Shown here: piece after piece, positions 1,336 through 52,423 of the stretch
How the letters are laid out: every line of letters begins with the position of its first letter
Position numbering within the stretch: position 1 is the stretch's first letter
Virus record (IMG/VR): IMGVR_UViG_3300028840_002185
Coordinates: 1-64,000 of that record
Reading direction: 5' to 3' (one strand)
Source: a virus
Length of the DNA stretch: 64,000 nt
Program-made: the position numbers and the translations under genes
Notes under the pieces: generated by a model
What the model was told of the DNA's origin: nothing
What the model saw: the letters and a program-made list of their open reading frames with translations, nothing else
The model's database searches: none

Positions 1336-2229
1336 TCACATAAATCGATGATAATTCAAGACTTCATTTGCGATTCTCTCAGGTTCAATCATAGCAAGGC
1401 AGGTCGCATATGGAGATCCTTTCCAAGGATGTTTGCATTTATCAATCGTTGAGATCCAACAGCCCCTTTCCCGACAACAATCAAATAATCCAAGTGAATT
1501 TATATATCTATGATCAGGATATGTTTCCCATCGACAATCTTCACGTCCTCCGGCAACCACCACACAGGGCTTATTAAATGCAGCAGCAAGATGCATTTGC
1601 ATAGTCACATGATTAATGCATCCTGAAGAATGATAAACCAATGAGAAATAGTCTCTTAGGTTCTCTGTAAGGCCCACCAAAGAACGAATTCTACTATGGG
1701 TATGATGTACATCCTTATTGCTGCCTACCTGATATAAATTCAATCCTGCATCCGTTAAAATATCAATAACCTTTTGCCACTTTACAGGTGGATACCCTTT
1801 AATAGGTATATCTATCTTTACTCCAGAATTAATTATCCAATAAGGTTTTTTAATTTTAAGACGATCTAAAATAATACCTTCTTTTTCATCTGGAGTTAAA
1901 TATATATCAGGTCTCATTGATGTTTTAAGTATTTTAAGATCATATAATTCATTAATCATATAAATAAACACAGAAGAAAAATGGTATCCAAGAGGAGCAA
2001 GTTTATCTCTTGAAGCAGCATAATCAAGTTCCTGAATAGGAACAGATCCATCTTTAGGAAAATAAGTAATATATGGATTATTGAAAAATACTTCTGGATA
2101 ACAACAAAGAACGTCTGTTTGTATAAGTCCAGGATATACTTTATGAAGATCTCTAATAGCACAAGTCAACATTAATAAATCTCCAGGGGCTTGCCATTGT
2201 TTAAATATTACTTTAGGTATAGCTCTCAT
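1336..2229 (-). CDS. glycosyltransferase family 9 (ADP-heptose heptosyltransferase)-like protein
   Basis: N-terminal GDLLMLTCAIRDLHKVYP and C-terminal GCINHVTMQMHLAAAFNKPCVVVAGG resemble WaaC/WaaF/WaaQ-type GT9 enzymes. The C-terminus also has a Cys-rich CC..RGC...C....C..MIEPERI tail. TAATG start/stop overlap with the upstream fibre gene at 2229. Confidence 0.65.
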   Translation of the reverse strand: MRAIPKVIFKQWQAPGDLLMLTCAIRDLHKVYPGLIQTDVLCCYPEVFFNNPYITYFPKDGSVPIQELDYAASRDKLAPLGYHFSSVFIYMINELYDLKILKTSMRPDIYLTPDEKEGIILDRLKIKKPYWIINSGVKIDIPIKGYPPVKWQKVIDILTDAGLNLYQVGSNKDVHHTHSRIRSLVGLTENLRDYFSLVYHSSGCINHVTMQMHLAAAFNKPCVVVAGGREDCRWETYPDHRYINSLGLFDCCRERGCWISTIDKCKHPWKGSPYATCLAMIEPERIANEVLNYHRFM

Positions 2230-3425
2230 TATTTCATCTTTATGTATTTTTTTATGCCTGATGGTAAACCTTGAGATAAAACAGGCAATTGAAATTTAGT
2301 TGAAGAATCATATTCTGTAAAATCGGCCCAAAGTTCAATGTCTGATCCATTATTACCTACCATAAACATTCCAACTCCAGGGATTACTGCTATTCTATTT
2401 CTAATATCTGAAGTTTGCGATAAAGATGTATTAATAGTTGTCGTGCGTGGTTGAAAGTTTCTGGCATCATCTTCTGCAATGTACCAAATAGGATAATATC
2501 TTGAATAACCTGTCATCATAAAGATATGTTTAGTACCATCATAATTACCTGTTGAGGGCCAAAACTCTGTAGATCCAAATTTACTTTGAATAAATGGAAC
2601 AGGCCACCAATCAAAGCCATTTGAAGATCTTAACCAAAAGTTATTATTAACGGTATTAAACCAAAGATTAAAATATGTTCCATCAAAAGTTACAGTACCA
2701 GGATATAAACCTTGATAATTAGGCGAAAGCCATTGAAAAATATCAGACGCAGTTGACCAGTTCTGTCCACCATCTGAAGATCTGTGCCATTTGTAATCAC
2801 TATAACTCCAGTAAATAAGATAGTTATTTCCACCACAGACATAAGCAAAATTAACACTATTGTCAGGCCATGATGCTGCATACCAATTGATTCCATCCGT
2901 AGAATAATCAAGAGGTCTTGGAGAAGTATTCATTGATGTTGCTACAAAATAATTTCCTGTCCAAATCAAGTAATTCCAATTTTTAGTTTGAGTCAATGAT
3001 CTGGAAGTCCAAGAGCTTCCATCTGTTGTGGTATAAGCTGTAGCTGAGTTATACCGGAGGGTCACAATAATGCTGCCATTGTTTGTTACCGTATAATAAT
3101 AATCAGATGAAGATCCTCCCAATGGACTATTAACATTCCAAGTGTCTCCGGCATCATCAGTATAAAGAACTTCAACTCCTTGACCTACAACAACTAATAT
3201 ATCTCCCATCCTTGTACAGGATTTAGGAGCATAAGTTCTTTCAGTCCAATACTGAAGTCGTTCATAACATTTTGGATGAAGATCTTGAGCTATTGCACAG
3301 TATTCAGGATAATCAGCTTGATCTAATATTTGACCATCAGCACATTTCCAATCTGCTGAAGGTGAAGCAATCGCTTCAATAACTGTACCGATTTCAAAAT
3401 CAACTTGAGTATTTATTAAATCCAT
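2229..3425 (-). CDS. tail fibre / receptor-binding protein: tail-collar-like N-terminus plus BNR/Asp-box-like repeats
   Basis: N-terminus GTVIEAIASPSADWKCADGQILDQADYPEY resembles the phage tail-collar domain. Repeats are TDDAGDTW, TTDGSSW, STDGINW and SSDGGQNW. Paralogous to 3425-4594. Confidence 0.7.
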   Translation of the reverse strand: MDLINTQVDFEIGTVIEAIASPSADWKCADGQILDQADYPEYCAIAQDLHPKCYERLQYWTERTYAPKSCTRMGDILVVVGQGVEVLYTDDAGDTWNVNSPLGGSSSDYYYTVTNNGSIIVTLRYNSATAYTTTDGSSWTSRSLTQTKNWNYLIWTGNYFVATSMNTSPRPLDYSTDGINWYAASWPDNSVNFAYVCGGNNYLIYWSYSDYKWHRSSDGGQNWSTASDIFQWLSPNYQGLYPGTVTFDGTYFNLWFNTVNNNFWLRSSNGFDWWPVPFIQSKFGSTEFWPSTGNYDGTKHIFMMTGYSRYYPIWYIAEDDARNFQPRTTTINTSLSQTSDIRNRIAVIPGVGMFMVGNNGSDIELWADFTEYDSSTKFQLPVLSQGLPSGIKKYIKMK

Positions 3426-4594
3426 TATTGTACCCTTATATATCTATTTAAACCCCTATCATAGTAGCGTTTCTTTTGATAATTGGGTAATTGAAAATGA
3501 GTACTTTCATTATAAATTTCTATCTTAGAAGTATAAGGCATTGAATAACCATAATTGCCAAAGACACACAAATTTCCTGATGTACTGTTATAAACTAAAT
3601 CATAACATTCACCCTCAAAAGGATTATTAAGCCAAGGATGAAATGTTCTAAGATCAAATGAATAAACACCCCAAGGTGATTGTGTTCCTACTCCAAAATA
3701 AATACTATCATAATATCTCCATCGCCATATATTAGCAGGTACATATCCTGCATTATTTAATGCTTCATCTGTATCAGTAGAAAAGGGTACAAACTCCCAA
3801 TCAGAACCATTATCTGAAATACCAACATATCCTTGAGCAGTACCAATTAAAAAATATCCATTACAATATTCTATTCCATACCACGGCCCTTGCGCTCCTA
3901 ATGTCTTTGACCAATTAGCTCCATTATCCGTTGAATAATAAATGGCTCCACCACTATTAGTAAGGACAATAGTTCCTGATCCATCAGAAGCACCATAATA
4001 GGTATTGTTAGAATCTGGCAAAACTCCAGTATCAGACCATGAGATCCCATCAGTAGATCTAATAACTTGAGTTTGATCTTTCGCTATTGCAATAAAATAC
4101 GTTCCATCAAAGACAATAACATTCCAATTATAGGAATAAGATAAAGTTCTGGTAGTCCATGAACTGCCTGTCGATGACGTTGCTCCTTCATTAGATCCAT
4201 ATCTCAAAGCACAAAAGACAGATCCATTCCATGCAGGGCCATACCAAGTTCCGGCAGTTGGCATTGTACTAAGAGTCCACGTAATACCATCTGTTGATCT
4301 ACTATATAATTGATCCCATCCACAAGCAACCCAAACTGGAGAACCAGTACTGCCGTTCCATTGAACTCTTTCAGCATATGGATAATCTCCACCTGTGTCA
4401 TAATCATCAGTAAAATTCCAATGACTATATAATTCAGGGTGTGGATTTTCCATTTTATTATAAAGAACAGGATAACTGGCTTGAGCTAATACTTGTCCTC
4501 TGCAAAGCATCCAGTTTAATGATGGAGGAGCATTACCTTCAATAATAGATCCAACAGGATATATTTCATCTGCTTTAGGAGCTAATAAAGTCAT
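3425..4594 (-). CDS. tail fibre / receptor-binding protein, paralogue of 2229-3425
   Basis: N-terminus VGSIIEGNAPPSLNWMLCRGQVLAQASYPVLY is tail-collar-like. Repeats are STDGITW, STGSSW, STDGISW, STDNGANW and SDNGSDW. 1-nt overlaps with both neighbours. Confidence 0.7.
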   Translation of the reverse strand: MTLLAPKADEIYPVGSIIEGNAPPSLNWMLCRGQVLAQASYPVLYNKMENPHPELYSHWNFTDDYDTGGDYPYAERVQWNGSTGSPVWVACGWDQLYSRSTDGITWTLSTMPTAGTWYGPAWNGSVFCALRYGSNEGATSSTGSSWTTRTLSYSYNWNVIVFDGTYFIAIAKDQTQVIRSTDGISWSDTGVLPDSNNTYYGASDGSGTIVLTNSGGAIYYSTDNGANWSKTLGAQGPWYGIEYCNGYFLIGTAQGYVGISDNGSDWEFVPFSTDTDEALNNAGYVPANIWRWRYYDSIYFGVGTQSPWGVYSFDLRTFHPWLNNPFEGECYDLVYNSTSGNLCVFGNYGYSMPYTSKIEIYNESTHFQLPNYQKKRYYDRGLNRYIRVQ

Positions 4595-42255: not shown

Positions 42256-42303
42256 AATGTCCTCAAAATTTAGGAAATTAATTGTACATAATAATCTATT
42301 ATC

Positions 42304-42333
42304 ATTTTAAACGCAAGTCAATAATATTGTCAA
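42304..42333 (-). promoter_or_regulatory. candidate sigma70-type promoter for the late operon
   Basis: On the minus strand TTGACA (rc of 42328-42333), an 18-nt spacer, then TAAAAT (rc of 42304-42309), ~50 nt upstream of the terS ATG. Confidence 0.35.
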
Positions 42334-42346
42334 GGATTTTGATTAA

Positions 42347-42787: not shown

Positions 42788-42831
42788 AAACCCTTATAAT
42801 TCCTTGATTTATAAGCCCTCACAAATTTTTA

Positions 42832-42859
42832 TTGACATTAACTTGGATTATGATATAAT
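42832..42859 (+). promoter_or_regulatory. sigma70-type promoter with extended -10
   Basis: TTGACA 42832-42837, a 16-nt spacer ending in TGa, then TATAAT 42854-42859. Confidence 0.6.
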
Positions 42860-42883
42860 AGGTATATTGTGCTTAAAAGAAGG

Positions 42884-42927
42884 GGAGAGGGTAATTTCAG
42901 GCGACCAACCCCAAAATTACCCTCTCC
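42884..42927 (+). other. perfect 14-bp stem-loop in the 5' leader of the 43038 gene
   Basis: GGAGAGGGTAATTT (42884-42897) pairs with AAATTACCCTCTCC (42914-42927) across a 16-nt loop. There is no U-tract after it. Confidence 0.6.
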
Positions 42928-42993
42928 GGTGAAAGGAGGTTAGAAAAATACTTTCACATGACAAAAAACCCCTAAACCAAAAAGGAGGTTTAA

Positions 42994-43041
42994 ATGACCC
43001 CTTTAATGACAGGCAGTATCACTAAAAGGAGCTTAATATGA
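42994..43041 (+). CDS. 15-codon upstream ORF (MTPLMTGSITKRSLI) coupled to the 43038 gene
   Basis: AAAGGAGG RBS 5 nt upstream of ATG 42994. Its TGA (43039-43041) overlaps ATG 43038 in an ATGA arrangement. Confidence 0.35.
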   Translation: MTPLMTGSITKRSLI

Positions 43042-44744
43042 ATCTTAGTGCATTAATAAAAGAATGTCAACTAAAAAATTACTTATTTAATAATGAGTGT
43101 ATTTGTTGGGATGAAAAACAAGAATTTTATAACAATTGCCGATTCTATATCAACAATACGATTACCTTGGAAGGTAGCCCTTGGGCCAAAGGGTCTGCTC
43201 CAATTTCCTATTATAAAAAGATCGGCCTTTCTGTTCTGCAAAAACGAATTATTAAATACCTCCACGAAAATTTTTTCCAATACGGATCACCATCATATCT
43301 CAAGATCGAAACCCTTGCCAATCGAGTCAAATCATCAAGGAGATCAACATACAGAGCAATCGGAAGATTAGTTGATCGAAAGATCCTAATACGACTCCAG
43401 ATCTTCTCAGACAAATACAAACAATATCGTTCAATCATCCTTCCAATCAATCCCCTCAAAATCAAGTTAATCAATAAATTGCGTAGTTTAGGTATCAAAC
43501 GGTCTCCTCTCGATGCCAAACGGTCTCTCCCCAAAGAAATTAGACGAGACCATTTGTTATCTAAATTACCAAAATCATTCCAGATAAATCGACAGATAAT
43601 AGATTATATATATTCTATTAATACTATTTATACTAATAACATCATTAGTGGTTCTAAAGAAGATTATAAACCTTCGGTTTATACGCAACGCCAAAGTCGT
43701 TGCGCTGAGAACACGTCTTTAAATCTTTCACAAGAGAGGAGCAAAAAACCTATGTCCATTCCCAGGTATAAATTAAAGCCTATTGATTCCAAACCTGTTA
43801 CCCTTGATCGAACACTTGTTGACCTTGTTTCATCAGTTGATTTTGATATATTTAATCTTGCAGACAATCAAAGAAAAAATCTATTGGATTATGTTGAAAA
43901 GCATACCTATGATTTTGAGTTCAATAAACTGTTTTCTGAAAAGAAGCTCAATGTACGTCATGTTGTCGGTCAAAGGCAGAACCGACTATTGCTTTCCGAT
44001 TACTTGAAACTATTCTTTTCCAATGAACCATTGAACCATGAAATAACCAATCACATTTTGCGCTATTGGAACAATGTTGATAACCCACGATTCCAAAAAC
44101 ACAAAATTGATAATCCCAATTCAATCACCTACGCCAAACTTCTTATCTTAACAAATTATATGTTAAAATTTTATTACAAAAATGATATGACCATCTTTCT
44201 AAATAACATCAGTCGAATTAATATGTATGGATCTCAGAATCATTATCTTGCCAATATTCTAAAGAAGTGGGGGTTGGATAACTTGATCATGCAGCGCAAT
44301 ACAAATGGAATGAAAAAGTATTGGATGATTGAAAAGAAAGATTTTGAAGCTGAGTTATTTAAATATCGTAGTAGAAATAAAGAAGCAGCACAACGATGGA
44401 AAGAAATTTACATTCACTCATTTTATGGCAACGATCAAAAATTGGGCCTTGAAAAATACAACCAGTATCACAGCAAATTGGATTCATTTCTGGATCTGTT
44501 AATCAATCGATTAAGCGAATGCCGGAGAGAACTTTATAAAAGAAATTTGACCAAACAGATGATGATCGATGGATATGAAACTGATTCGATTCTGGCAGAT
44601 TATTGTGATTGGATTAGCTTCAGCATTGCTAAACGACCATCTATCATAGATTTGTGCAATTATGATCATTTTATGCAATTTGTGTATCAGGAAATGAGAG
44701 GGGTTAGAGGGATGGAAAAATTTTGGCAACCAATCAGGACTTGA
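43038..44744 (+). CDS. large DNA-binding protein with a winged-HTH-like N-domain (568 aa), possibly a replication initiator/organiser or regulator
   Basis: ETLANRVKSSRRSTYRAIGRLVDRKILIRL looks like an HTH recognition segment. AAAGGAG RBS. The function is not established. Confidence 0.6.
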   Translation: MNLSALIKECQLKNYLFNNECICWDEKQEFYNNCRFYINNTITLEGSPWAKGSAPISYYKKIGLSVLQKRIIKYLHENFFQYGSPSYLKIETLANRVKSSRRSTYRAIGRLVDRKILIRLQIFSDKYKQYRSIILPINPLKIKLINKLRSLGIKRSPLDAKRSLPKEIRRDHLLSKLPKSFQINRQIIDYIYSINTIYTNNIISGSKEDYKPSVYTQRQSRCAENTSLNLSQERSKKPMSIPRYKLKPIDSKPVTLDRTLVDLVSSVDFDIFNLADNQRKNLLDYVEKHTYDFEFNKLFSEKKLNVRHVVGQRQNRLLLSDYLKLFFSNEPLNHEITNHILRYWNNVDNPRFQKHKIDNPNSITYAKLLILTNYMLKFYYKNDMTIFLNNISRINMYGSQNHYLANILKKWGLDNLIMQRNTNGMKKYWMIEKKDFEAELFKYRSRNKEAAQRWKEIYIHSFYGNDQKLGLEKYNQYHSKLDSFLDLLINRLSECRRELYKRNLTKQMMIDGYETDSILADYCDWISFSIAKRPSIIDLCNYDHFMQFVYQEMRGVRGMEKFWQPIRT

Positions 44745-46364: not shown

Positions 46365-46419
46365 AAATGCCCCTATCGTTATTTATTACAAAATTAGTCT
46401 TTCGATAGGGGCATTTTTT
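46365..46419 (+). terminator. rho-independent terminator
   Basis: AAATGCCCCTATCG (46365-46378) pairs with CGATAGGGGCATTT (46403-46416), followed by a T-run to 46419. The loop is large (24 nt). Confidence 0.65.
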
Positions 46420-46435: not shown

Positions 46436-47461
46436 ATGAAAAGTTTGATTAATGAAATTAATGAAATTGGTTACATTGATTTTAGCAAAATCAATATAGC
46501 TGTCATTGGTGATTGTATGCTTGACATTTATCACTATGGATCAGTTGAACGTATCTCACCTGAAGCACCTGTTCCAATTTTCAAATCAAATAACTTAGAA
46601 CCAGAATACCGATTAGGTGGAGCTTGCAATACTGCATTGAACCTTGCCAAATTAGGTGTTAAAACTCATTTATTTGGGTTTGTAGGCAAAGATATTAATG
46701 CAACCTATATCAAGAGCTACTTGTTGGAACATAACATCAATTTTACATTAATTGAATTAAAAGACTATCCTACCATTACCAAAAACAGATACTTCTCAAA
46801 GAATCAACAAATCATCCGAATCGATCATGAGAACACAGATGGAGAGATCTACAATCATGGAAGACAACAGCAATTAATTAAAGTATTCAATGAAATGTGT
46901 CCAAGAATGGATGCTTTAATTATTTCTGATTATGGTAAAGGCACACTCTACAATCCTGTGTTAAATGCAATCATTGATGGTTGTGCTGAGAAAACTCCTT
47001 TCTTTGTTGATCCTAAAATAAATAATTGGGAGTTCTATAAAAACTCATTTTGCATTACTCCCAATTGGAAAGAATTCAAAGATGCTTGTCATCGTCCTTT
47101 AATGAAATACGATCCTGGTGCAGTTTCAATCATTGCAAGGCATTTATGTCATGAATACAACATCAAATACATTTTGATTACATTAGGATCTAAAGGAATG
47201 CAATTATGCAGCAAGGATGGTCACATCGAATCTCGATCAACAAAAGCTGAAGAAGTTTATGATGTTTCTGGTGCAGGTGATACGGTCATTGCTACTATGG
47301 CTGCTGCTCATTGTAAAGGTTATACAATGACCATTGGTATGCAATTAGCAACTATGGCAGCAAAAGTAGTTATAAGTCATCTTGGAACTTATGCTGTAAC
47401 TGATTCTGAATTAAGATTAGAATTATGTAAAAAGCATAGTACAAGTGGAAAGGAGTGTTAA
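46436..47461 (+). CDS. D-glycero-beta-D-manno-heptose-7-phosphate kinase-like (HldE/RfaE domain I, pfkB family)
   Basis: VIGDCMLDIYHYGSVERISPEAPVPIF, GGACNTALNLAKLG and DVSGAGDTVIATMAA match the HldE kinase-domain signatures. There is no C-terminal adenylyltransferase domain. Confidence 0.75.
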   Translation: MKSLINEINEIGYIDFSKINIAVIGDCMLDIYHYGSVERISPEAPVPIFKSNNLEPEYRLGGACNTALNLAKLGVKTHLFGFVGKDINATYIKSYLLEHNINFTLIELKDYPTITKNRYFSKNQQIIRIDHENTDGEIYNHGRQQQLIKVFNEMCPRMDALIISDYGKGTLYNPVLNAIIDGCAEKTPFFVDPKINNWEFYKNSFCITPNWKEFKDACHRPLMKYDPGAVSIIARHLCHEYNIKYILITLGSKGMQLCSKDGHIESRSTKAEEVYDVSGAGDTVIATMAAAHCKGYTMTIGMQLATMAAKVVISHLGTYAVTDSELRLELCKKHSTSGKEC

Positions 47462-47836
47462 GTGGTTACTAAATACAAATACAAAAACGCAGTTAAAAAG
47501 AGATACGGAGAACACAAATGTCCTTATTGTGGTAAGATCTTTCATCTGTCTGAATCATTAGCAGGACATATTGGTGGAGCGCATAGACGTTTCACAACTC
47601 AAACTGGAAAACCACATTGCAAGTTTTGTGAAACTGAATTGGTCAAAGGAAAGAATTGGCCTATGTGGGCAGTTAAACAACAAAATTTAATCTGCAAAAA
47701 ATGCAAACGTGAACAAAACCGAAAATCCTACCTAAAGAAAATGACCACCAAAAGAGAAAATAGAAGATTGTATGAAGAACGAAAAGCCAAAGCAATTGCC
47801 AATCGGTTAAAAAGGGAGCAGAAAAAAAATGACTGA
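47462..47836 (+). CDS. C2H2 zinc-finger plus zinc-ribbon protein with a basic tail (124 aa)
   Basis: CPYCGKIFHLSESLAGHIGGAH fits C-x2-C-x3-F-x5-L-x2-H-x4-H. It is followed by CKFC...CKKC. GTG start abuts the kinase stop and GGAAAGGAG lies upstream. Confidence 0.65.
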   Translation: MVTKYKYKNAVKKRYGEHKCPYCGKIFHLSESLAGHIGGAHRRFTTQTGKPHCKFCETELVKGKNWPMWAVKQQNLICKKCKREQNRKSYLKKMTTKRENRRLYEERKAKAIANRLKREQKKND

Positions 47837-48503
47837 AGCACCAATTATACCACGCAAAGCATTCATTGAGTTGATTGAGGAAATGGATCTTGATGACTTT
47901 ATGACAATTAACTTTAAATGTCTAAAGTTTGTATCAGGTAATATCTCTTTGACTGAGCTATTTCATATTGCAATGACCGTTTCTTTATTCCGGCCTAATT
48001 GGATTATGGAATTTGGCACATTTAATGGCAGAACTACATTGAATATGGCAATCAACAATGAACATGCAAATATTATAACAATTGATCTTCCAAAAAACCA
48101 AGTCAATCGTACACGTTATCCATTAGAAAGCAAAGGAACCAATAAATTACAATTGGATGAAACTGGATACGTTGGATTGAAAGGAAAACTCTGGACAGGT
48201 CAATCAAGTGAAATTGTTCAACGCATTACTCAAGTATGGTCTGATACTGCAAAAGTAAAATTCAATCAATATAAAGATAAAATTGATTTTCTTTTTATTG
48301 ATGCATCCCACACTTACGAAAATTGCAAGAATGATTCATACAATGGTCATAAGGTAATTAAAAAACATGGAATCATTTACTGGCATGATTACGCAGGATG
48401 GCCTGGAGTCACAAAAGCATTGAATGAATATTATATCAATGAAGGTGAACCAGAAAAGATGTATTGGTTTGATAACACTTCTATTGTTGGGAGATTTTTT
48501 TAA
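47829..48503 (+). CDS. class I SAM-dependent methyltransferase (Methyltransf_24-like)
   Basis: IMEFGTFNGRTTLNMA (motif I region), FLFIDASHTYENCKNDS and GIIYWHDY. Confidence 0.7.
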   Translation: MTEAPIIPRKAFIELIEEMDLDDFMTINFKCLKFVSGNISLTELFHIAMTVSLFRPNWIMEFGTFNGRTTLNMAINNEHANIITIDLPKNQVNRTRYPLESKGTNKLQLDETGYVGLKGKLWTGQSSEIVQRITQVWSDTAKVKFNQYKDKIDFLFIDASHTYENCKNDSYNGHKVIKKHGIIYWHDYAGWPGVTKALNEYYINEGEPEKMYWFDNTSIVGRFF

Positions 48504-49492
48504 TGAGCAAAATAATTATTTCTTTTATGGATCAAAAGAGTAAACCAAAAAATCCAGATAATTTATTTGGAATTCTTGATACTGAAAATGAACATTTTGA
48601 ATGGATTAAATTGTCTCATTTAAACAATACCAACAATTTTGTACATGGTATGGGAATGACTTATAATCAAAATTATTTCTGTGCCGGAATAATCCCAATA
48701 AGAGAAAGACTAACTTCAAATATTCTCACCATAAACCTTGAAACTGGTGAGAAAAAAATAACATATTTACATTTTACAAAAGCAATTCATGGCATGACTA
48801 CTTTAGATAATAACAGATTATTAGTCAATGCTACTCAAAACGATTGTGTTGTGGAGTTGTGTCTTAACAATGGATGGGTTGTTACTGAAGATCTTTATCA
48901 TCATTTTTTATCCAAAGACTATTGGGAAGAAATAAGGAGAAGATATTGTGATTTAAGACAGGATCAAATTATCTATCGTGGGCCTACATATGTGGACGAT
49001 AATTATCACAACAATTCATTATTTAAATTTAAAAACCATATCTATGCAACCATGTTTAGAGGATTACCACATATGCAAGGCGTAGATGGTGGAGGAGCAA
49101 TGTTTAATTTAAAAAATGGAAATGTGATAATAGATAATTTATCTCAACCTCATACTGCTTTTGTTGATTCGATGAAAAATCCTTGTGTATGTAATTCCTC
49201 CCAATTCACTTTTATTGTCAAAGGTAAGTTTAAAATTGCCCTTGACGGATATACAAGGGGGATACATGAAGACAAACAAAAAAGCGGATATTGGATTGGT
49301 ATATCAGCATACCGCAAATACAATGCAAAATTATCAAAATGGATTGAAAAGTATCGTGGAGACCAACCTCTTAAAGGAGCAAGAATTCAATTTGTCAGTT
49401 ATGATGGACAGATCGGAAATACTATCGAGCTTTCGCAGTATGGTAAAGAAATATTTGATCTCTTGCCCTACAAAAACGGAAAATGGAATTAA
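48503..49492 (+). CDS. hypothetical protein (329 aa), possibly DUF4915/TIGR03032-like
   Basis: TAATG coupling to the methyltransferase. The family guess comes only from general resemblance (HG..., RG...-rich repeats). Confidence 0.55.
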   Translation: MSKIIISFMDQKSKPKNPDNLFGILDTENEHFEWIKLSHLNNTNNFVHGMGMTYNQNYFCAGIIPIRERLTSNILTINLETGEKKITYLHFTKAIHGMTTLDNNRLLVNATQNDCVVELCLNNGWVVTEDLYHHFLSKDYWEEIRRRYCDLRQDQIIYRGPTYVDDNYHNNSLFKFKNHIYATMFRGLPHMQGVDGGGAMFNLKNGNVIIDNLSQPHTAFVDSMKNPCVCNSSQFTFIVKGKFKIALDGYTRGIHEDKQKSGYWIGISAYRKYNAKLSKWIEKYRGDQPLKGARIQFVSYDGQIGNTIELSQYGKEIFDLLPYKNGKWN

Positions 49493-49509
49493 AAAAAGGA
49501 GAGTTAAAA

Positions 49510-49716
49510 ATGAAAAGACACGCAAAGGCAAAAATCCGTAATCTGATTAATCTGGAAGAAAAAGATGGTTTGACCAAAACCATTAAACGATTGCAAAAGA
49601 GATACAGTTATCTTTTAAGCAATCGTAACCGTATTGGTGGAGAATCAAGGCAGATGAAATATATTCAATACCATATGAAGAAATATCAGAGAATGTATCA
49701 GGAGGGAATTAGATGA
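49510..49716 (+). CDS. small basic protein (68 aa)
   Basis: ATG 49510 preceded by AAAGGAGAG. The track start at 49483 lies inside the previous gene. Confidence 0.55.
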   Translation: MKRHAKAKIRNLINLEEKDGLTKTIKRLQKRYSYLLSNRNRIGGESRQMKYIQYHMKKYQRMYQEGIR

Positions 49717-49931
49717 AGCGTGGAAATGTTAGAACATCTAAAAAGTACATAGTGGATTCTGAAGGAAACAAAACAATCAAATATGAGATCCAAGGAAAAC
49801 GCAATGGTATTTGGATGACTGTTCATGAAATGGATAAAACAACTAAAAAGAAAACTCCCATGATCTATGATACTATTGAAGAAGCTGAAAAACAGTTGTT
49901 AAAGATAGTTCAGCAAATAAAAGGGAGGTAA
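49713..49931 (+). CDS. hypothetical protein (72 aa)
   Basis: ATGA overlap upstream and CAGGAGGG RBS. Confidence 0.6.
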   Translation: MKRGNVRTSKKYIVDSEGNKTIKYEIQGKRNGIWMTVHEMDKTTKKKTPMIYDTIEEAEKQLLKIVQQIKGR

Positions 49932-49934
49932 TTA

Positions 49935-50156
49935 ATGGATCTCAAAGATGCTAAGTTTCTATTGAAAGAATTAAGAAGTGATGAATGTGCCTGTGGTAAA
50001 TATAAAAAATCAGGCTTTTCGTTTTGTTATAGTTGTTACTCCAGTTTGTCAAATGACTTACAAAAGAAGTTGTACAGGAGATTCGGAAATGGATATGAAG
50101 AAGCCTATGAAGAAGCATATGGATGGCTCAGAACTTGGGAATGGGATGATGAATGA
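49935..50156 (+). CDS. small Cys-rich protein (73 aa)
   Basis: Contains CAC....CYSCY. AGGGAGG RBS. Confidence 0.6.
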   Translation: MDLKDAKFLLKELRSDECACGKYKKSGFSFCYSCYSSLSNDLQKKLYRRFGNGYEEAYEEAYGWLRTWEWDDE

Positions 50157-50598
50157 CTTCTACAAAAACATGGTTTCATTGGAGATAGATACTAATAAGT
50201 TAATCAAAAAAGTTTGGGGATGGGAATACTGGATAATCAATTGTGAACAATATTGTGGTAAAATCTTAATTGTTAAAAAAGATCATATCTGCTCAACTCA
50301 TTATCATCAAAAGAAACACGAAACCTTTCATATATTATCTGGTCATCTCTACATGGAGTATGATATAGACTTTACTGAAAGAACCCATTGGAGAATGATT
50401 CCAGGGGATACTTTAATTGTTCCACCTTATACTAAACATGCTTTTGGTGGCATTACCGATGTTAAATTTCTTGAAATATCAACTCAACATTTTGAAAATG
50501 ATAGCTATCGTGATAATCAAAGTCGATATGTTGAAAATGGTTCTGAAGAATGGTATAATAATTCATCTAAATATGTAAATGGAGGTAATCAATGTTGA
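50146..50598 (+). CDS. cupin-fold sugar isomerase/epimerase-like protein
   Basis: WGWEYW..GKILIVKKDHICSTHYHQKKHETFHILSG ... GDTLIVPPYTKHAFG gives the two cupin motifs. I start it at ATG 50146, overlapping the previous stop. The track's 49978 start would overlap the whole previous gene. Confidence 0.6.
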   Translation: MMNDFYKNMVSLEIDTNKLIKKVWGWEYWIINCEQYCGKILIVKKDHICSTHYHQKKHETFHILSGHLYMEYDIDFTERTHWRMIPGDTLIVPPYTKHAFGGITDVKFLEISTQHFENDSYRDNQSRYVENGSEEWYNNSSKYVNGGNQC

Positions 50599-51110
50599 GA
50601 AGATCAAATAATTTAATTTGGTTTTTTATTGGTGTTTTAATAATTATTCTTCTTACTGTAATCTATGAAAAAGTTAGTGCGGAAGAATTAACTGCTCATT
50701 ATAATATTACTCTTTATACAATGAGTACAGATCAGCAGTTAACAGTTGCTTGGGATGATACCAATCCAGATATACAAGAGACTTTTGAATTTTATTTGTG
50801 GAATCATGGTGAACAAAGAAAATATGCAATTGGACAAACTCAGCAATTGCAAGTAACTACATTTATTCCACGTACAGGTCTTTATGCTTTCTTTGCAAGA
50901 GCCTGTGATAATGTTACTACTTTACCTACTTCATTAACTGAAAATGAAGTTACAGAGTACAAATGTTCTGAGTATGCTTCATCAGTAATGGAACAACCTG
51001 ATGGAACACCCTATGGTGTTGTAAAAGATCCGGCAACAGGACAATTAACTCCTGGCAAATGGATGATTTACGGACACGTTGGCGCACCTACTGGTGGTGG
51101 AGTCGAATAA
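50592..51110 (+). CDS. membrane-anchored protein with an FN3/Ig-like domain (172 aa)
   Basis: N-terminal TM segment LIWFFIGVLIIILLTVIY. TVAWDD...FEFYLW...YAFFARAC has a beta-sandwich-like pattern. Confidence 0.55.
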   Translation: MLRRSNNLIWFFIGVLIIILLTVIYEKVSAEELTAHYNITLYTMSTDQQLTVAWDDTNPDIQETFEFYLWNHGEQRKYAIGQTQQLQVTTFIPRTGLYAFFARACDNVTTLPTSLTENEVTEYKCSEYASSVMEQPDGTPYGVVKDPATGQLTPGKWMIYGHVGAPTGGGVE

Positions 51111-51156
51111 TCGATTCCTAATCTTATAATATATTATTTAATAGGAGGATTTTATT

Positions 51157-51495
51157 ATGGCAGCTATGCTAAAGTTCAAACCGAGTACATCAGCAGACGT
51201 TGCGAGTTACAAACTGTTCCTCAAGCCTGATGAACCGAATGTGACTCTTGACAAAAACAATGCATCTCAAACAGTCGATCTTGGCAATCCTGCACCAGAC
51301 ACAGATGGATTCATTAAAGTCAATTTGCAAGCCATTCCTCAATTGGCAAACCTTGATGGAATGTATGATCTTGGTGTTTGTGCTGTGGATGATGCCGGAA
51401 ATGAATCACCATTACTGTTACAGGGGCTTGCCGATATAAGCCTGGATTTTTTGGCTCCAAGCCCTCCTTCGGAAGCAAGCGTTTACTGGATTTAA
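51157..51495 (+). CDS. FN3/Ig-like domain protein (112 aa)
   Basis: VASYKLFLKP ... YDLGVCAVDDAGNESP is typical of FN3-like phage domains. TAGGAGG RBS. Confidence 0.55.
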   Translation: MAAMLKFKPSTSADVASYKLFLKPDEPNVTLDKNNASQTVDLGNPAPDTDGFIKVNLQAIPQLANLDGMYDLGVCAVDDAGNESPLLLQGLADISLDFLAPSPPSEASVYWI

Positions 51496-51684: not shown

Positions 51685-52029
51685 TTGGGAGGAATAGTGG
51701 CTTATCTTTATGATCCAAGGGTTAAAACCTTTGTGGATACAAACAATCCTGCAATTATTATGGCTGATGCCATGATAAGAATAGGAGCAATCGAACCAGA
51801 TGATAAATTCTGGCAAAAAATAGAGTTATTGGCTAATTATGCTGATTCAGGAAATGGAATCGGCCCGATGATAAAAACAGAATATGAAAAGGAATTAAAA
51901 AAAAGCAAACCTAAACGAAAACCAAGAAAAAAGAAAACACAAACAAATTCTGAAGTAATTGAATTACCAAAAAAGAGATTAACACTTAAAGCAAAGATCA
52001 ATGGAAGCAAAAAGAAAAATATGGTTTGA
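51685..52029 (+). CDS. hypothetical protein with a Lys-rich C-terminus
   Basis: TTG start in the track. An in-frame GTG at 51697 sits 4 nt after GGAGG, so the start is uncertain. Confidence 0.5.
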   Translation: MGGIVAYLYDPRVKTFVDTNNPAIIMADAMIRIGAIEPDDKFWQKIELLANYADSGNGIGPMIKTEYEKELKKSKPKRKPRKKKTQTNSEVIELPKKRLTLKAKINGSKKKNMV

Positions 52030-52423
52030 TCCTGAGTATCGGAAAATCAAACGTCATCGATTAAGTTTTTTCTGTCCGATGTTTAATACTCAGTTATCCG
52101 GTTGCAATATGACTTGCAATCCATGTCTTGCTTTAAAATACAGAAAAGAGGAAACAACCATAGTTAATGTTAAAACGGATGACTATGATATTTATATAGG
52201 CAGAGGTTCAAAGTGGGGAAATAGGTATCGTATCGGAGAGGATGGAACCAGAGAGGAAGTAATTGAAAAATATAAAGCAGACAAGTTAGAAGATCCCTAT
52301 TTCCTGATGGACGTTGTTAGGCAACTGCAAGGAATGAGATTAGGTTGCCATTGTAAACCCTTAAATTGTCACGGTGACTTCCTTGTTGAAGTGGCAGAAG
52401 GGAGAATTAAATATGGAGACTGA
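52001..52423 (+). CDS. DUF4326-domain protein
   Basis: YDIYIGRGSKWGNRYRIGEDGTREEVIEKYK ... LGCHCKPLNCHGDFL matches the DUF4326 pattern. The start is uncertain because there is no clear RBS. Confidence 0.6.
   Translation: MEAKRKIWFDPEYRKIKRHRLSFFCPMFNTQLSGCNMTCNPCLALKYRKEETTIVNVKTDDYDIYIGRGSKWGNRYRIGEDGTREEVIEKYKADKLEDPYFLMDVVRQLQGMRLGCHCKPLNCHGDFLVEVAEGRIKYGD

What the first reader, a model, noticed from the sequence alone, without database searches (positions are those of the whole stretch)
46436..50598. Phage-borne heptose/sugar-modification cluster lacking the rest of the pathway
This is a set of co-oriented genes. The first is an HldE/RfaE-domain-I-type kinase (ISPEAPVP, GGACNTALNLAKLG, DVSGAGDT) without the adenylyltransferase half. 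Then come a C2H2 zinc-finger protein and a Methyltransf_24-type SAM methyltransferase. An unknown 329-aa protein is coupled to the methyltransferase by a TAATG overlap. After three small ORFs there is a cupin resembling sugar isomerase/epimerase cupins. Two FN3-like proteins follow (50592-51495), one of them membrane-anchored. No GmhA, GmhB or nucleotidyltransferase is visible, so the phage would have to draw on host heptose-phosphate intermediates. Together with the GT9-like gene at 1336-2229, this suggests phage-directed production and transfer of a possibly methylated or epimerised heptose. The acceptor is unknown. Options are virion proteins, the host envelope (receptor masking or superinfection exclusion), or something else.
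Basis: partly seen in the sequence, partly recalled or inferred. Interest (0 to 1): 0.7.

Follow-up and report, generated by a model that had tools for sequence, protein, structure and literature searches.

The report
Phage heptose-sugar activation and tailoring genes
A roughly 108-kb phage carries a heptose-7-phosphate kinase, a small sugar-isomerase-like protein, a methyltransferase, a propeller protein of unknown function and a heptosyltransferase-like gene, which together look like a kit for making and attaching a modified seven-carbon sugar; the small protein may be an unrecognised substitute for the usual first enzyme of that pathway.

Summary
The kinase is an HldA/HldE-domain-I type enzyme (TIGR02198, E 5e-92; the next pfkB subfamily scores 66 bits) and has no adenylyltransferase half. 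No GmhA, GmhB or HldC homologue occurs in the window or in 18 kb of flanks, which together make about 82 of about 108 kb.

Comparative genomics changes the picture in three ways.
- The kinase is an accessory insert. Relatives keep ZnF–MTase24–cupin–DUF4915 with nothing, a kinase, or a fused HldE in that slot. One relative adds an HldC-type adenylyltransferase and a small HAD phosphatase 5 kb downstream.
- The cupin belongs to the family that sits inside the known cyanophage heptose clusters. It heads cupin–kinase–GmhB–HldC–HldD operons in Saccharibacteria and is fused to the kinase in a Levyibacteriota genome. No SIS-type GmhA was found near any of these. I infer that the cupin is the missing isomerase.
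- GT9 and MTase24 genes lie next to such clusters in other viral contigs.

The "phage heptose glycan" reading is therefore supported, although phage heptose genes are already known from cyanophages. The acceptor is unresolved: it could be the tail fibres next to GT9 or the host envelope. I rate this a new variant of a known kind.

The parts
46365..46416 (+). Hairpin followed by a U-run, directly upstream of the kinase ribosome-binding site. It looks like a terminator and marks the start of the kinase-ZnF-MTase-DUF4915 block.
   Evidence: Folds at -22 kcal/mol, z = -6.2 against shuffles. The stem is kept in L001, and in L011 through a paired C->T / G->A change. The simple terminator scan missed it because the loop is long.
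46436..47461 (+). [quoted passage not shown] It is an accessory gene within this phage lineage.
   Evidence: PF00294 at 1.9e-30. TIGR02198 at 5.3e-92 and 308 bits over profile positions 4-312 of 315 (curated cut-off 345); the next subfamily scores 66 bits. Best solved relative is B. cenocepacia HldA 4e84 at 1.5e-41, with shared ISPEAPVP, LGGAxN and DVSGAGDT motifs. Absent from the syntenic slot in L008, L181, L182 and the P0025 contig.
47462..47836 (+). Small Zn-finger protein (C2H2-like plus CxxC) with a basic C-terminal tail. It abuts the kinase stop and overlaps the methyltransferase start by 8 nt. It is conserved upstream of the methyltransferase in every relative. Its role is unknown.
   Evidence: Weak zf-C2H2 and zf-Di19 hits at E 4-5e-3, below cut-offs. 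Homologues at 54-73% identity in L008, L009, L022, L181 and L182.
47829..48503 (+). Class I SAM methyltransferase of the Methyltransf_24 family, probably a sugar O-methyltransferase.
   Evidence: PF13578 at 4.3e-12 (47 bits against 26) and Methyltransf_3 at 1.8e-4. Paralogous MT24 genes sit beside glycosyltransferases and the cupin in L014 and L038; the L038 copy also hits the rhamnosyl O-methyltransferase/CmcI family.
48503..49492 (+). DUF4915/TIGR03032-family beta-propeller, coupled to the methyltransferase by a TAATG overlap. Its biochemical function is unknown. Distant homologues link it to glycan biosynthesis.
   Evidence: DUF4915 at E 5e-4 for this protein; most homologues carry PF16261. 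Forty invariant residues in the alignment. AF2 model at pLDDT 87.8, all-beta. Only generic propeller matches, TM about 0.5. Distant family members are fused to GT2, GT4, Caps_synth, MptE-like and sulfotransferase domains.
49483..50156 (+). Three small ORFs (77, 72 and 73 aa; the last has CxC...CxxC). They are conserved in relatives and of unknown function.
   Evidence: Homologues in L007, L008, L009, L181 and L182. No significant family hit.
50146..50598 (+). Small metal-binding cupin of the phosphomannose/lyxose-isomerase type. It belongs to the family embedded in viral and cellular ADP-heptose operons. The proposed function is sedoheptulose-7-phosphate isomerase, which is inferred and not shown.
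   Evidence: Cupin_2 at 2.3e-7, Lyx_isomer at 1.2e-4 and phrog_7851 at 1.8e-28. Invariant H52, H54, E59, H98 plus K39, K57, E110, D119, R122. AF2 model at pLDDT 87.7; the top Foldseek and sequence hits are Thermococcus phosphomannose isomerases 7zvy and 7zvm. Gene linkage.
50592..51110 (+). 172-aa protein with an N-terminal membrane anchor and a possibly FN3-like domain. In L007, L181 and L182 the homologue is about 509 aa and has a ConA-like lectin (Laminin_G_3) domain.
   Evidence: Hydrophobic N-terminus in the translation. No family hit. Homologues and the Laminin_G_3 domain.
51157..51495 (+). 112-aa protein, possibly FN3-like. Syntenic in all relatives.
   Evidence: No family hit. Homologues at 41-71% identity in L007, L008, L009, L022 and L182.
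1336..2229 (-). GT9-family (heptosyltransferase-type) glycosyltransferase. Its start overlaps the stop of the upstream tail-fibre-like gene.
   Evidence: PF01075 at 1.7e-6, 28 bits against 22. More than 350 homologues, most with PF01075. Not an LPS HepI/II/III equivalog (about 19 bits against cut-offs of 135-185). Homologues sit directly beside the cupin/kinase/adenylyltransferase genes in L038 (33% identity), L076, L078, L086 and L082, and inside an 865-aa transferase beside the cupin in L014.
2229..4594 (-). Two paralogous tail-fibre-like proteins (398 and 389 aa; the latter has a phage tail-collar domain) immediately upstream of GT9. They are candidate acceptors.
   Evidence: Collar domain at E 1.2e-4. 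The two are 27% identical. Further fibre-like paralogues and a second DUF4915 paralogue follow beyond window position 1 (L004).

Best explanation
The stretch is part of a phage-encoded system for making and using an activated, tailored heptose.

Proposed chemistry:
1. [quoted passage not shown] This step is inferred.
2. The HldA-type kinase phosphorylates O1 to give heptose-1,7-bisphosphate. The family assignment is shown; the activity is inferred.
3. This phage then relies on the host GmhB-type phosphatase and HldC/HldE-type adenylyltransferase to finish ADP-heptose. Relatives encode those steps themselves.
4. The GT9 transferase, encoded in the tail-fibre operon, uses the nucleotide-heptose as donor.
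5. The Methyltransf_24 enzyme and the DUF4915 propeller tailor or help place the sugar.

The acceptor is not resolved. I lean slightly towards the phage's own fibre proteins, because GT9 and a second DUF4915 paralogue sit among fibre paralogues. The alternative is the host envelope.

Within this phage lineage the module is modular. ZnF-MTase-cupin-DUF4915 is the constant core. The kinase, the adenylyltransferase and the phosphatase are gained and lost.
For: Kinase identity.

Tight packing of kinase, ZnF, MTase and DUF4915 (0-nt gap, 8-nt overlap, 1-nt overlap) behind a terminator-like hairpin.

Lineage variants at the same slot:
- no kinase in L008, L181, L182 and the P0025 contig;
- a kinase in L001, L009 and L011;
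- a fused HldE in L022 (NF008454 at 2e-97).

L009 adds an rfaE_dom_II adenylyltransferase (1.2e-38) and a HAD phosphatase.

Cupin linkage:
- Cyanophage clusters run NT-kinase-HAD-cupin-HldD-like epimerase.
- Of 80 IMG/VR cupin loci, 60 have the adenylyltransferase, 57 the kinase and 52 the HAD. The median cupin-kinase distance is 903 bp. None has a SIS GmhA, even at E<1.
- The Saccharibacteria operon L114 is cupin-HldA-GmhB-HldC-HldD. In L121 the kinase and cupin are fused.
- Complete cyanophage genomes that carry the cluster have no SIS GmhA anywhere.

The cupin is closest in sequence and fold to phosphomannose isomerases.

GT9 and MT24 lie next to heptose genes in L038, L014 and L076-L088.

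DUF4915 is fused to glycosyltransferases and a sulfotransferase in distant homologues. A second DUF4915 paralogue lies in the GT9/fibre operon.
Against: - No enzyme activity was tested.
- The kinase scores below NCBIfam's curated equivalog cut-off (308 against 345 bits).
- In this genome the kinase and GT9 are 44 kb apart and on opposite strands.
- The cupin persists in relatives without a kinase in the slot (L008, L181, L182, L014). Most cellular cupin loci (Planctomycetota, delta-proteobacterial MAGs) show no heptose genes within 10 kb. The cupin therefore need not be dedicated to heptose.
- The 80 viral loci are dominated by one related group. At 50% cupin identity they form six clusters, and only one of these is kinase-linked. 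The counts are therefore not independent.
- Absence of GmhA within 10 kb does not show absence from cellular genomes.
- The Foldseek cupin list also contains the CapF epimerase cupin and unrelated cupins at similar scores.
- 24% of the phage genome was not seen.
Confidence: 0.6

Rival explanations
1. The chemistry is the same, but the target is the host cell envelope. The phage raises ADP-heptose supply and uses GT9, the methyltransferase and DUF4915 to alter the LPS core, O-antigen or capsule. This would mask the receptor and exclude superinfecting phages. It is the classical auxiliary-gene reading given for cyanophage 'LPS genes'.
For: - Heptose genes in cyanophages are conventionally read as host-derived LPS genes (PMC7378029; PMC12379486).
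- The kinase-to-cupin block lies among early or middle genes next to the DnaD-like replication gene.
- A membrane-anchored protein that gains a ConA-like lectin domain in relatives is encoded immediately downstream.
- GT9 enzymes are best known as LPS heptosyltransferases.
Against: - GT9 is translationally coupled to tail-fibre-like genes in the late operon, together with a second DUF4915 paralogue.
- It is far from the LPS HepI/II/III equivalogs (about 19 bits against cut-offs of 135-185).
- No integrase or lysogeny module was seen in the 82 kb read, so there is little time for envelope remodelling to pay off.
- The cyanophage clusters also abut tail-fibre genes.
Confidence: 0.3
2. The genes are neighbours without a shared function. 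The kinase is a stand-alone moron or auxiliary gene that only boosts the host's own LPS heptose flux. ZnF-MTase-cupin-DUF4915 does something unrelated to heptose.
For: - The kinase is missing from the syntenic slot in four relatives, while the other genes stay.
- It is preceded by its own terminator-like hairpin.
- Kinase-less relatives insert a radical-SAM enzyme and a GT2-like gene instead.
Against: - The same slot is filled independently by a fused HldE that is only 38% identical in L022. This argues for selection for the association.
- The cupin of the 'core' is itself the family most tightly linked to heptose kinases elsewhere, including a gene fusion.
- MT24 and GT9 are adjacent to kinase, adenylyltransferase and cupin in L038.
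Confidence: 0.15
3. The pathway works on a hexose rather than a heptose. The cupin would be a true phosphomannose isomerase (Fru-6-P to Man-6-P). The kinase, with phosphatase and nucleotidyltransferase, would build an unusual nucleotide-mannose by the same 1,6-bisphosphate route.
For: - The closest solved relatives of the cupin are phosphomannose isomerases. Many homologues hit PF01050 (type II PMI). Weaker family members are about 530-aa proteins with a C-terminal cupin, as in GMP/PMI enzymes.
- In L014 the cupin sits beside a UDP-glucose/GDP-mannose dehydrogenase with no kinase.
Against: - The partner enzymes in the operons are specifically heptose-type: TIGR02198, the GmhB equivalog NF006506 (169 bits against 178), TIGR02199, and HldD TIGR02197 (345 bits against 275, passing the cut-off).
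- GT9 is a heptosyltransferase family.
Confidence: 0.08
4. The cupin is a tailoring enzyme rather than the isomerase. It would be a CapF/WbuC-like metal cupin acting as an epimerase on a nucleotide-keto-heptose, together with the neighbouring SDR. The isomerase step would always be left to host or cellular GmhA.
For: - In viral clusters the cupin lies beside an SDR 'epimerase' in 52 of 80 loci.
- The S. aureus CapF cupin domain is among the Foldseek hits (TM about 0.6).
- There is a weak TIGR04366 WbuC hit.
- The cupin occurs without the kinase in several phages.
Against: - The SDR partner is an HldD-type 6-epimerase that needs no cupin (TIGR02197).
- In this window there is no SDR at all.
- The cupin is fused to the kinase, not to the SDR.
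- The best sequence and fold matches are aldose-ketose isomerases.
- Five-gene operons otherwise contain exactly the canonical steps minus GmhA.
Confidence: 0.2
5. The sugar is destined for phage DNA, as a hypermodified base glycosylation, and not for protein or envelope glycans.
For: - The block lies in the early or replication region.
- The methyltransferase matches a PHROG labelled 'DNA methyltransferase'.
- Its partner is a Zn-finger protein with a basic tail.
- Relatives add a radical-SAM enzyme.
- From my own knowledge, phages that arabinosylate or glucosylate hydroxymethylcytosine encode sugar-activation genes.
Against: - No hydroxymethylase or thymidylate-synthase-like gene was seen in the 82 kb read.
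- GT9 is in the late tail operon.
- The GT9, DUF4915 and MT24 families are associated with glycan enzymes elsewhere.
- Heptosylated DNA is unknown.
Confidence: 0.05

Closest known systems
Heptose ('LPS') gene clusters of T4-like cyanophages (Kyanoviridae: P-SSM2, S-CAM1, S-SM2, S-SSM7, P-TIM68)
   Same: - A pfkB heptose-7-P-type kinase together with the same small cupin family (40-44% identity to the window cupin).
- Located next to tail-fibre genes.
- No SIS GmhA.
- Regarded as phage auxiliary genes for nucleotide-heptose (PMC7378029).
   Different: - Cyanophages have a short (about 250-aa) kinase that is only 25-27% identical. They also carry an HldC-type adenylyltransferase, a small HAD phosphatase (mis-named 'phosphoheptose isomerase'), an HldD-like epimerase and often a carbamoyltransferase, all in one tight operon.
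- The window phage is a roughly 108-kb siphovirus-like phage with a full-length HldA-like kinase. It has no adenylyltransferase, phosphatase or epimerase in the 82 kb read.
- Its partners differ: Methyltransf_24, DUF4915, a Zn-finger protein, and GT9 placed elsewhere in the genome.
[quoted passage not shown]
   Same: - The kinase is homologous over its full length to HldA/HldE-I, with the same motifs as B. cenocepacia HldA 4e84.
- Relatives carry HldC-, GmhB/HAD- and HldE-type genes.
   Different: - No SIS-type GmhA.
- A PMI-like cupin occupies the first position of the operon in viral, Saccharibacteria and other MAG loci.
- The window phage has only one, or with the cupin two, of the five steps.
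GT9 heptosyltransferases (LPS WaaC/WaaF/WaaQ; protein O-heptosyltransferases of the TibC/Aah type)
   Same: - Passes the Pfam GT9 model.
- Homologues are annotated ADP-heptose:LPS heptosyltransferase.
- As with TibC-TibA or Aah-AIDA-I (my own knowledge), the gene lies directly beside large surface or fibre protein genes, both here and in a Planctomycetaceae element.
   Different: - Far below the HepI/II/III equivalog cut-offs.
- No sequence match to any solved GT9 structure at E<=1.
- Only 297 aa.
- Donor and acceptor are untested.
Small cupin phosphomannose isomerases of Thermococcus (PDB 7zvy, 7zvm) and cupin D-lyxose / phosphoglucose isomerases
   Same: - Single-domain, roughly 110-aa cupin core with the His-x-His...Glu...His metal site.
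- Best sequence hit (E 2e-4) and best fold hit (E 1e-7, TM to target 0.72-0.78).
   Different: - Only 21-25% identical.
- The phage family has its own invariant C-terminal motif, E-[IF]-S-T-x-H-x-x-x-D-S-x-R.
- Its gene neighbourhood points to a seven-carbon substrate.

Membership tests
[quoted passage not shown] | pfkB carbohydrate-kinase fold | tested here: met
   PF00294 at E 1.9e-30, 107 bits against a cut-off of 25.8, covering residues 20-320.
[quoted passage not shown] | Score at or above NCBIfam's curated equivalog cut-off | tested here: not met
   308.3 bits against a cut-off of 345. The match is full length (profile 4-312 of 315) and 240 bits above the next pfkB subfamily. It is therefore the closest family, but not a certified equivalog.
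[quoted passage not shown] | Family motifs, including the N-terminal RISPEAPVP segment and the GAGD anion hole with catalytic Asp | tested here: met
   Residue-by-residue alignment to B. cenocepacia HldA 4e84 shows GD.MLD.Y..G.V.RISPEAPVP, LGGA.N.A.N, SDY.KG, VDPK, ITPN and DVSGAGDTVIAT conserved.
[quoted passage not shown] | Phosphorylates heptose-7-phosphate at O1 | not testable with these tools
   Needs an enzyme assay.
Bifunctional HldE (NF008454) | C-terminal cytidylyltransferase-like adenylyltransferase domain | tested here: not met
   The match covers profile positions 6-317 of 475 only, and the protein ends at residue 341. The relative L022 does have the fusion.
Viral heptose cluster as in cyanophages (adenylyltransferase-kinase-HAD phosphatase-cupin-epimerase) | Kinase and cupin of the shared families | tested here: met
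   phmmer of the kinase gives 5e-19 and 2e-17, and of the cupin 6e-28 and 8e-24, against S-CAM1 and P-SSM2 ORFs.
Viral heptose cluster as in cyanophages (adenylyltransferase-kinase-HAD phosphatase-cupin-epimerase) | HldC-type adenylyltransferase, small HAD phosphatase and HldD-like epimerase in the same genome | tested here: not met
   No hit at E<1 with family HMMs in the window, L004 or L005, and none by tblastn. 25.6 kb of the genome was not seen.
GmhA (SIS-domain sedoheptulose-7-phosphate isomerase) | SIS fold and sequence similarity to GmhA | tested here: not met
   No ORF in the window or flanks matches E. coli GmhA at E<1. The cupin has a different fold. Any isomerase role would be analogous, not homologous.
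Cupin superfamily, sugar-isomerase branch (Cupin_2 PF07883; Lyx_isomer PF07385; type II PMI PF01050) | Cupin barrel with an HxH...E...H metal site | tested here: met
   Cupin_2 at 30.9 bits against 27.2. H52, H54, E59 and H98 are invariant in 32 sequences. The AF2 model is a beta-barrel at pLDDT 87.7.
Cupin superfamily, sugar-isomerase branch (Cupin_2 PF07883; Lyx_isomer PF07385; type II PMI PF01050) | Aldose-ketose isomerase activity on a manno-configured sugar phosphate | not testable with these tools
   There is only similarity. Lyx_isomer scores 21.8 against 20.8 over a 27-residue stretch. PF01050 hits occur in many homologues. The top structural matches are phosphomannose isomerases.
Glycosyltransferase family 9 (PF01075) | Pfam gathering threshold | tested here: met
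   28.0 bits against 22, residues 122-246. Most of more than 350 homologues carry PF01075.
Glycosyltransferase family 9 (PF01075) | Membership of the LPS heptosyltransferase I/II/III equivalogs | tested here: not met
   TIGR02193 at 18.9 bits against 185, TIGR02195 at 18.7 against 135, and TIGR02201 at 15.5 against 170.
Glycosyltransferase family 9 (PF01075) | Uses ADP-heptose as donor | not testable with these tools
   The only evidence is gene linkage to heptose genes in L038, L076, L078, L086 and L082.
Methyltransf_24 (PF13578) | Pfam gathering threshold and a class I SAM-binding fold | tested here: met
   47.3 bits against 26.3, residues 61-188. The substrate is untested.
DUF4915 / TIGR03032 | Pfam gathering threshold | tested here: inconclusive
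   The window protein scores 19.9 bits against 35, over its C-terminal third only. However, 17 of its 26 homologues carry PF16261. A profile of the family retrieves 1,178 proteins, and the sampled ones hit DUF4915 at 1e-11 to 1e-49.
Fibronectin type III domain (for 50592-51495) | Match to an FN3 profile or fold | tested here: not met
   No Pfam, NCBIfam or PHROG hit at E<=0.1. No structure was predicted for these two proteins.

The most novel reading that the evidence does not exclude
The small metal-binding cupin is a previously unrecognised sedoheptulose-7-phosphate isomerase, a non-homologous replacement of GmhA. It is used by hundreds of viral heptose clusters, including the long-known cyanophage ones, and by Saccharibacteria, Levyibacteriota and DPANN-type genomes. 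Under this reading the window phage encodes the first two committed steps (S7P -> heptose-7-P -> heptose-1,7-bisphosphate). The cyanophage clusters would be self-sufficient ADP-heptose pathways, whose product is transferred by phage GT9 enzymes onto virion fibre proteins.
Probability: 0.45. Interest if true: 0.75.

Novelty: new variant of a known kind. Interest (0 to 1): 0.6.

Why it matters
Phage heptose genes have been listed as "LPS auxiliary genes" since the first cyanophage genomes were sequenced. Their product, their completeness and their target have never been established.

This locus and its relatives show that the genes form a modular toolkit: kinase, adenylyltransferase, phosphatase, cupin, GT9, O-methyltransferases and DUF4915. 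The toolkit occurs well beyond cyanophages.

The analysis yields three directly testable ideas.
- A cupin does GmhA's job. This would add a second, unrelated enzyme for the first committed step of heptose synthesis. GmhA is being pursued as an antibiotic target (PMC11056994).
- The cyanophage gene annotated "phosphoheptose isomerase" is really the pathway's phosphatase.
- The sugar may end up on phage tail fibres, which would affect host recognition and immune or defence evasion.

The analysis also gives DUF4915/TIGR03032 a first functional context, in glycan biosynthesis.

Tried and rejected
- Nucleotide search of the 4.2-kb region against 50,697 phage records found no match. tblastn of DUF4915 and GT9 against the same records also found none.
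- Sequence searches of DUF4915, MT24, GT9 and the L009 216-aa protein against PDB gave nothing meaningful.
- Foldseek of the DUF4915 model against PDB and BFVD gave only generic beta-propellers at TM about 0.5. No function can be drawn from them.
- Literature searches for DUF4915, TIGR03032 or PF16261, and for cupin together with sedoheptulose, heptose and isomerase, returned no papers. The search for cupin with ADP-heptose, GmhA and HldE listed no paper that mentions cupin.
- The consensus promoter and terminator scan was at background level and missed the hairpin upstream of the kinase.
- I tried to read the remaining 25.6 kb of the genome. The single metagenome scan found only a 3-kb relative, and look-ups are restricted to window proteins, so that part stays unseen.
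- I considered a ribokinase, fructokinase or other pfkB subfamily for the kinase and rejected it (66 bits or less against 308).
- I considered that the 216-aa protein of L009 might be a divergent SIS/GmhA. There is no support: no PDB or Pfam hit, and it is not found near other clusters.
- I considered that L014 (108 kb) might be the same phage type and so reveal the unseen region. It shares only the cupin, GT9-like and MT24 genes.

Full report
**What is there.** They are all on the + strand and tightly packed.
- Kinase: 46436-47461.
- Zn-finger protein: 47462-47836. It starts directly after the kinase stop.
- Methyltransferase: 47829-48503, with an 8-nt overlap on the Zn-finger gene.
- 329-aa protein: 48503-49492, joined by a TAATG overlap.
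- Three small ORFs.
- Cupin. Its real start is probably near 50146, because the conserved 73-aa ORF ends at 50156 and homologues are 110-175 aa long.
- Two small proteins: 50592-51495.

A strong hairpin with a U-run lies just upstream of the kinase ribosome-binding site (46365-46416; -22 kcal/mol, z = -6.2). In relative L011 the stem is kept through a paired change. The kinase therefore seems to open a transcription unit.

**Genome context.** The exact proteins are found on a 107,941-bp JGI contig (sample 3300017963). That contig is circularly permuted relative to the window. The two coordinate offsets differ by 107,818 bp, which indicates a complete circular or terminally redundant genome of about 107.8 kb.

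The minus-strand half of the window is a siphovirus-like structural module:
- HK97-type capsid, portal and protease;
- BR0599, NlpC/P60 and Phage-tail_3 distal-tail proteins;
- tail-collar fibre proteins.

The finding lies in the divergent plus-strand block that starts with a DnaD-like protein. No phage in GenBank is similar at the DNA level.

**The kinase.**
- Pfam places it in pfkB.
- NCBIfam's rfaE_dom_I model for heptose-7-phosphate kinase matches over its full length at E 5e-92 and 308 bits. The next pfkB subfamily, hexose kinase/1-PFK, reaches 66 bits, and ribokinase reaches 55.
- The score is below the curated equivalog cut-off of 345, so it is the closest family but not a certified member.
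- The best solved relative is B. cenocepacia HldA (4e84, E 1.5e-41). It shares the RISPEAPVP, LGGAxN, SDYxKG, VDPK and DVSGAGDT motifs.
- The HldE model is matched only over its kinase half (positions 6-317 of 475). The adenylyltransferase domain is truly absent.

**The stretch is not one fixed cluster.** I used homologues of the 329-aa protein to fetch relatives.
- Close relatives L001, L009 and L011 (kinase 67-86% identical) have the same order.
- More distant relatives L008, L181, L182 and the P0025 contig keep the flanking 125-aa gene, the Zn finger, the methyltransferase, the cupin and DUF4915. They have no kinase in the slot, where the gap is only 40-100 nt.
- In those relatives the cupin sits directly after the methyltransferase. 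L181 and L182 also insert a radical-SAM enzyme, a weak GT2-like protein and a second Methyltransf_24.
- In L022 the same slot holds a fused kinase-adenylyltransferase (HldE model at 2e-97). Its kinase part is only 38% identical to the window kinase.
- L009 carries three extra genes about 5 kb downstream: an rfaE_dom_II adenylyltransferase (E 1.2e-38), a 216-aa protein of unknown type, and a small HAD phosphatase.
- None of these three has a homologue in the window or its flanks.

The constant core is therefore ZnF-MTase-cupin-DUF4915. Heptose-activating genes are repeatedly and independently attached to it. That pattern argues for a functional link rather than chance adjacency.

**The cupin is the key.**
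- Cyanophages. By tblastn, its homologues in isolated phages are all in T4-like cyanophages, where they lie inside the known heptose clusters. In P-SSM2 and S-CAM1 the order is carbamoyltransferase, adenylyltransferase, kinase, 'phosphoheptose isomerase', cupin (annotated 'cysteine dioxygenase'), then an HldD-like epimerase, next to tail-fibre genes.
- A misannotation. The 'phosphoheptose isomerase' is mis-named. It has the DxDGT HAD motif, matches the capsule-biosynthesis phosphatase family TIGR01689 (E 1e-8), and is homologous to the L009 HAD.
- No GmhA in those phages. tblastn with E. coli GmhA finds a SIS-type GmhA in only 13 phage records. None of them is a cyanophage carrying this cluster.
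- IMG/VR. At least 585 loci encode the cupin. Of the best 80, within 10 kb, 60 have the adenylyltransferase, 57 the kinase, 52 the small HAD, 52 the epimerase and 6 a GT9 gene. None has a SIS GmhA, even at E<1. The median cupin-kinase distance is 903 bp.
- These loci are largely one related group, so the counts are not independent.
- Independent support comes from four sources:
  - the window lineage itself;
  - L015, where the cupin is adjacent to a pfkB kinase;
  - cellular genomes, where Saccharibacteria loci L102 and L114 and others carry the operon cupin-HldA-GmhB-HldC-HldD, with GmhB at 169 bits (cut-off 178) and HldD at 345 bits (cut-off 275);
  - a Levyibacteriota genome that encodes a single 438-aa kinase-cupin fusion.
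- These operons contain every canonical step of ADP-L,D-heptose synthesis except the isomerase, plus the cupin.

**What the cupin looks like.**
- The family has an invariant His-x-His...Glu...His metal site and further invariant Lys, Glu, Asp and Arg residues.
- Many members hit the type II phosphomannose isomerase and lyxose isomerase Pfam models.
- A confident model (pLDDT 87.7) is closest to the small cupin phosphomannose isomerases of Thermococcus. D-lyxose isomerases and cupin phosphoglucose isomerases also appear in the list.
- From established knowledge: GmhA converts a ketose phosphate to the manno-configured aldose phosphate, which is chemically the same operation as phosphomannose isomerase.
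- I therefore infer that the cupin supplies the isomerase step. This is inference from gene linkage, the gene fusion and fold. It is not shown.
- Points against. The cupin also occurs without any kinase nearby, in L008, L181, L182, L014 and most Planctomycetota and delta-proteobacterial loci. A CapF-type epimerase cupin scores similarly in Foldseek.
- I found no paper in the searchable library that connects a cupin with heptose synthesis.

**The other members.**
- Methyltransferase. It passes Methyltransf_24. Paralogues of this family stand in threes next to glycosyltransferases and the cupin in L014 and L038. The L038 copy also hits the rhamnosyl O-methyltransferase/CmcI model. A sugar O-methyltransferase is the most likely reading.
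- The 329-aa protein. It is a divergent DUF4915/TIGR03032 member with 40 invariant residues. The model is a beta-propeller (pLDDT 87.8), and fold searches give only generic propellers. A profile search finds 1,178 relatives. Long ones fuse DUF4915 to GT2, GT4, capsule-synthesis, MptE-like and sulfotransferase domains. This places the family in glycan biosynthesis without revealing its reaction.
- GT9. The gene at 1336-2229 passes Pfam GT9 and has more than 350 homologues. It is far from the LPS HepI-III equivalogs. It is translationally coupled to two tail-collar fibre paralogues.
- Beyond the window start, on the same strand, lie four more fibre-like paralogues and a second DUF4915 paralogue (E 3.5e-28).
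- GT9 homologues lie directly beside cupin, kinase and adenylyltransferase genes in L038 (33% identity), L076, L078, L086 and L082. A GT9-like region also lies inside an 865-aa transferase next to the cupin in L014.
- The nearest named cellular homologue (Planctomycetaceae MAG) lies in a mobile-element-like region, directly upstream of an 1818-aa protein.

**What is missing.** Family HMMs for HldC, the small HAD, E. coli GmhB, E. coli GmhA and the HldD-like epimerase find nothing at E<1 in the window, L004 or L005. Pfam scans of all sizeable ORFs show no SIS, HAD, cytidylyltransferase or NTP-transferase domain (precomputed Pfam). The slot where L009 carries its adenylyltransferase and phosphatase is empty in the window (between 53926 and 53953). 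About 25.6 kb (24%) of the genome could not be read.

**Most likely mechanism.**
- Shown: the family identities, the gene order, the variable presence of the genes, and the cross-lineage linkage.
- Inferred:
  - the cupin makes heptose-7-phosphate from sedoheptulose-7-phosphate;
  - the kinase makes the beta-1,7-bisphosphate;
  - host GmhB and HldC/HldE finish ADP-heptose;
  - the GT9 enzyme transfers the heptose;
  - the methyltransferase methylates it;
  - DUF4915 has an unknown accessory or catalytic role.
- The acceptor is open. In favour of the phage fibres: GT9 and a DUF4915 paralogue are placed among fibre genes, and the cyanophage clusters are placed beside fibre genes too. In favour of the host envelope: the usual role of GT9, the early-gene location of the kinase block, and the adjacent membrane-anchored protein that gains a lectin domain in relatives.
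- I put about 0.6 on the general heptose-glycan reading. Within it, I put roughly equal weight on the two acceptors, with a slight lean to the fibres, and about 0.45 on the cupin being the isomerase.

**Comparison and novelty.** Phage heptose genes are known from cyanomyoviruses and are usually listed as LPS auxiliary genes (PMC7378029). This locus is a new variant for four reasons:
- it belongs to a different phage type;
- it has a full-length HldA-like kinase without its usual partners;
- it has new partners (Methyltransf_24, DUF4915, a Zn finger);
- its GT9 gene sits in the tail operon.

The most interesting by-products reach beyond this phage. They are the cupin as a candidate GmhA replacement, the correction of the cyanophage 'phosphoheptose isomerase' annotation, and a first functional context for DUF4915.

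Noticed in passing
whole window; L003-L006: The window is circularly permuted relative to JGI contig Ga0180437_10000252 (107,941 bp). The two coordinate offsets differ by 107,818 bp, which indicates a complete genome of about 107.8 kb with a 123-bp assembly overlap. A second assembly of 107,905 bp (ENA ERZ27256798) carries the same genes.
   Followed up: partly
L004:6455-7297 (about 5-6 kb beyond window position 1, window minus strand): A second, 280-aa DUF4915 paralogue (E 3.5e-28 to the family profile). It lies in the late operon, downstream of GT9 and of four paralogous 334-352-aa proteins (L004:810-5876: two pairs at 64% and 47% identity, all about 28% related).
   Followed up: partly
window 46365-46416: A 14-bp-stem hairpin with a U-run lies between the upstream 125-aa gene and the kinase (z = -6.2). 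L011 preserves the stem through a compensatory C->T / G->A pair. It is probably an intrinsic terminator, which the simple scan missed because of the 24-nt loop.
   Followed up: partly
L013:7312-7656 and L012:7159-7482 (cyanophages P-SSM2, S-CAM1): The RefSeq product name 'phosphoheptose isomerase' is wrong for these 107-114-aa proteins. They are small HAD phosphatases (DxDGT motif; TIGR01689 at 1e-8) with no SIS similarity. The neighbouring 'cysteine dioxygenase' is the sugar-isomerase-like cupin.
   Followed up: yes
L121:9023-10336 (Candidatus Levyibacteriota MAG PLZJ01000002.1): A single 438-aa protein fuses an HldA-type kinase (residues 14-322; TIGR02198 at 314 bits) to the cupin (residues 321-437). 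HldC- and HldD-like genes follow it.
   Followed up: yes
L009:15738-16388: A 216-aa protein sits between the HldC-like adenylyltransferase and the HAD phosphatase of a relative phage. It has only a weak GSU2086-family hit (E 5e-12, far below cut-off), no Pfam or PDB match, and was not found next to other viral heptose clusters.
   Followed up: partly
L182:7610-9394 (and L181): Kinase-less relatives insert three genes between the cupin and DUF4915: a radical-SAM enzyme (PF04055 at 4e-15), a weak GT2-like protein and a second Methyltransf_24. This suggests a different sugar-tailoring chemistry in the same module.
   Followed up: partly
L014 (JGI 3300031368, 108,285-bp phage contig), 7368-18974: An unrelated phage of similar size has a large glycosylation island. 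It holds an 865-aa GT9-like/GT4 protein, the cupin, a UDP-glucose/GDP-mannose dehydrogenase, three Methyltransf_24 genes, Methyltransf_21 and Methyltransf_23 genes, and two more glycosyltransferases.
   Followed up: partly
L184:10001-16511 (Planctomycetaceae MAG JAJFTK010000040.1): The closest named cellular homologue of the GT9 protein sits in a mobile-element-like region (HTH_17, DUF927). It lies directly upstream of an 1818-aa protein, an arrangement reminiscent of transferase-substrate pairs.
   Followed up: no
window 52001-52423: A DUF4326 protein (E 1.5e-22) lies a few genes downstream and is syntenic in every relative examined (L007, L008, L009, L182). Its function is unknown.
   Followed up: no
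window about 56724-56930, minus strand: A 68-aa ORF has a weak precomputed CcdA (antitoxin) Pfam hit. It lies next to a 112-aa ORF on the same strand, so this is a possible toxin-antitoxin pair.
   Followed up: no
window 42000-44000: GC skew and AT skew change sign here. This coincides with the divergent junction between the minus-strand structural module and the plus-strand early or replication module.
   Followed up: no
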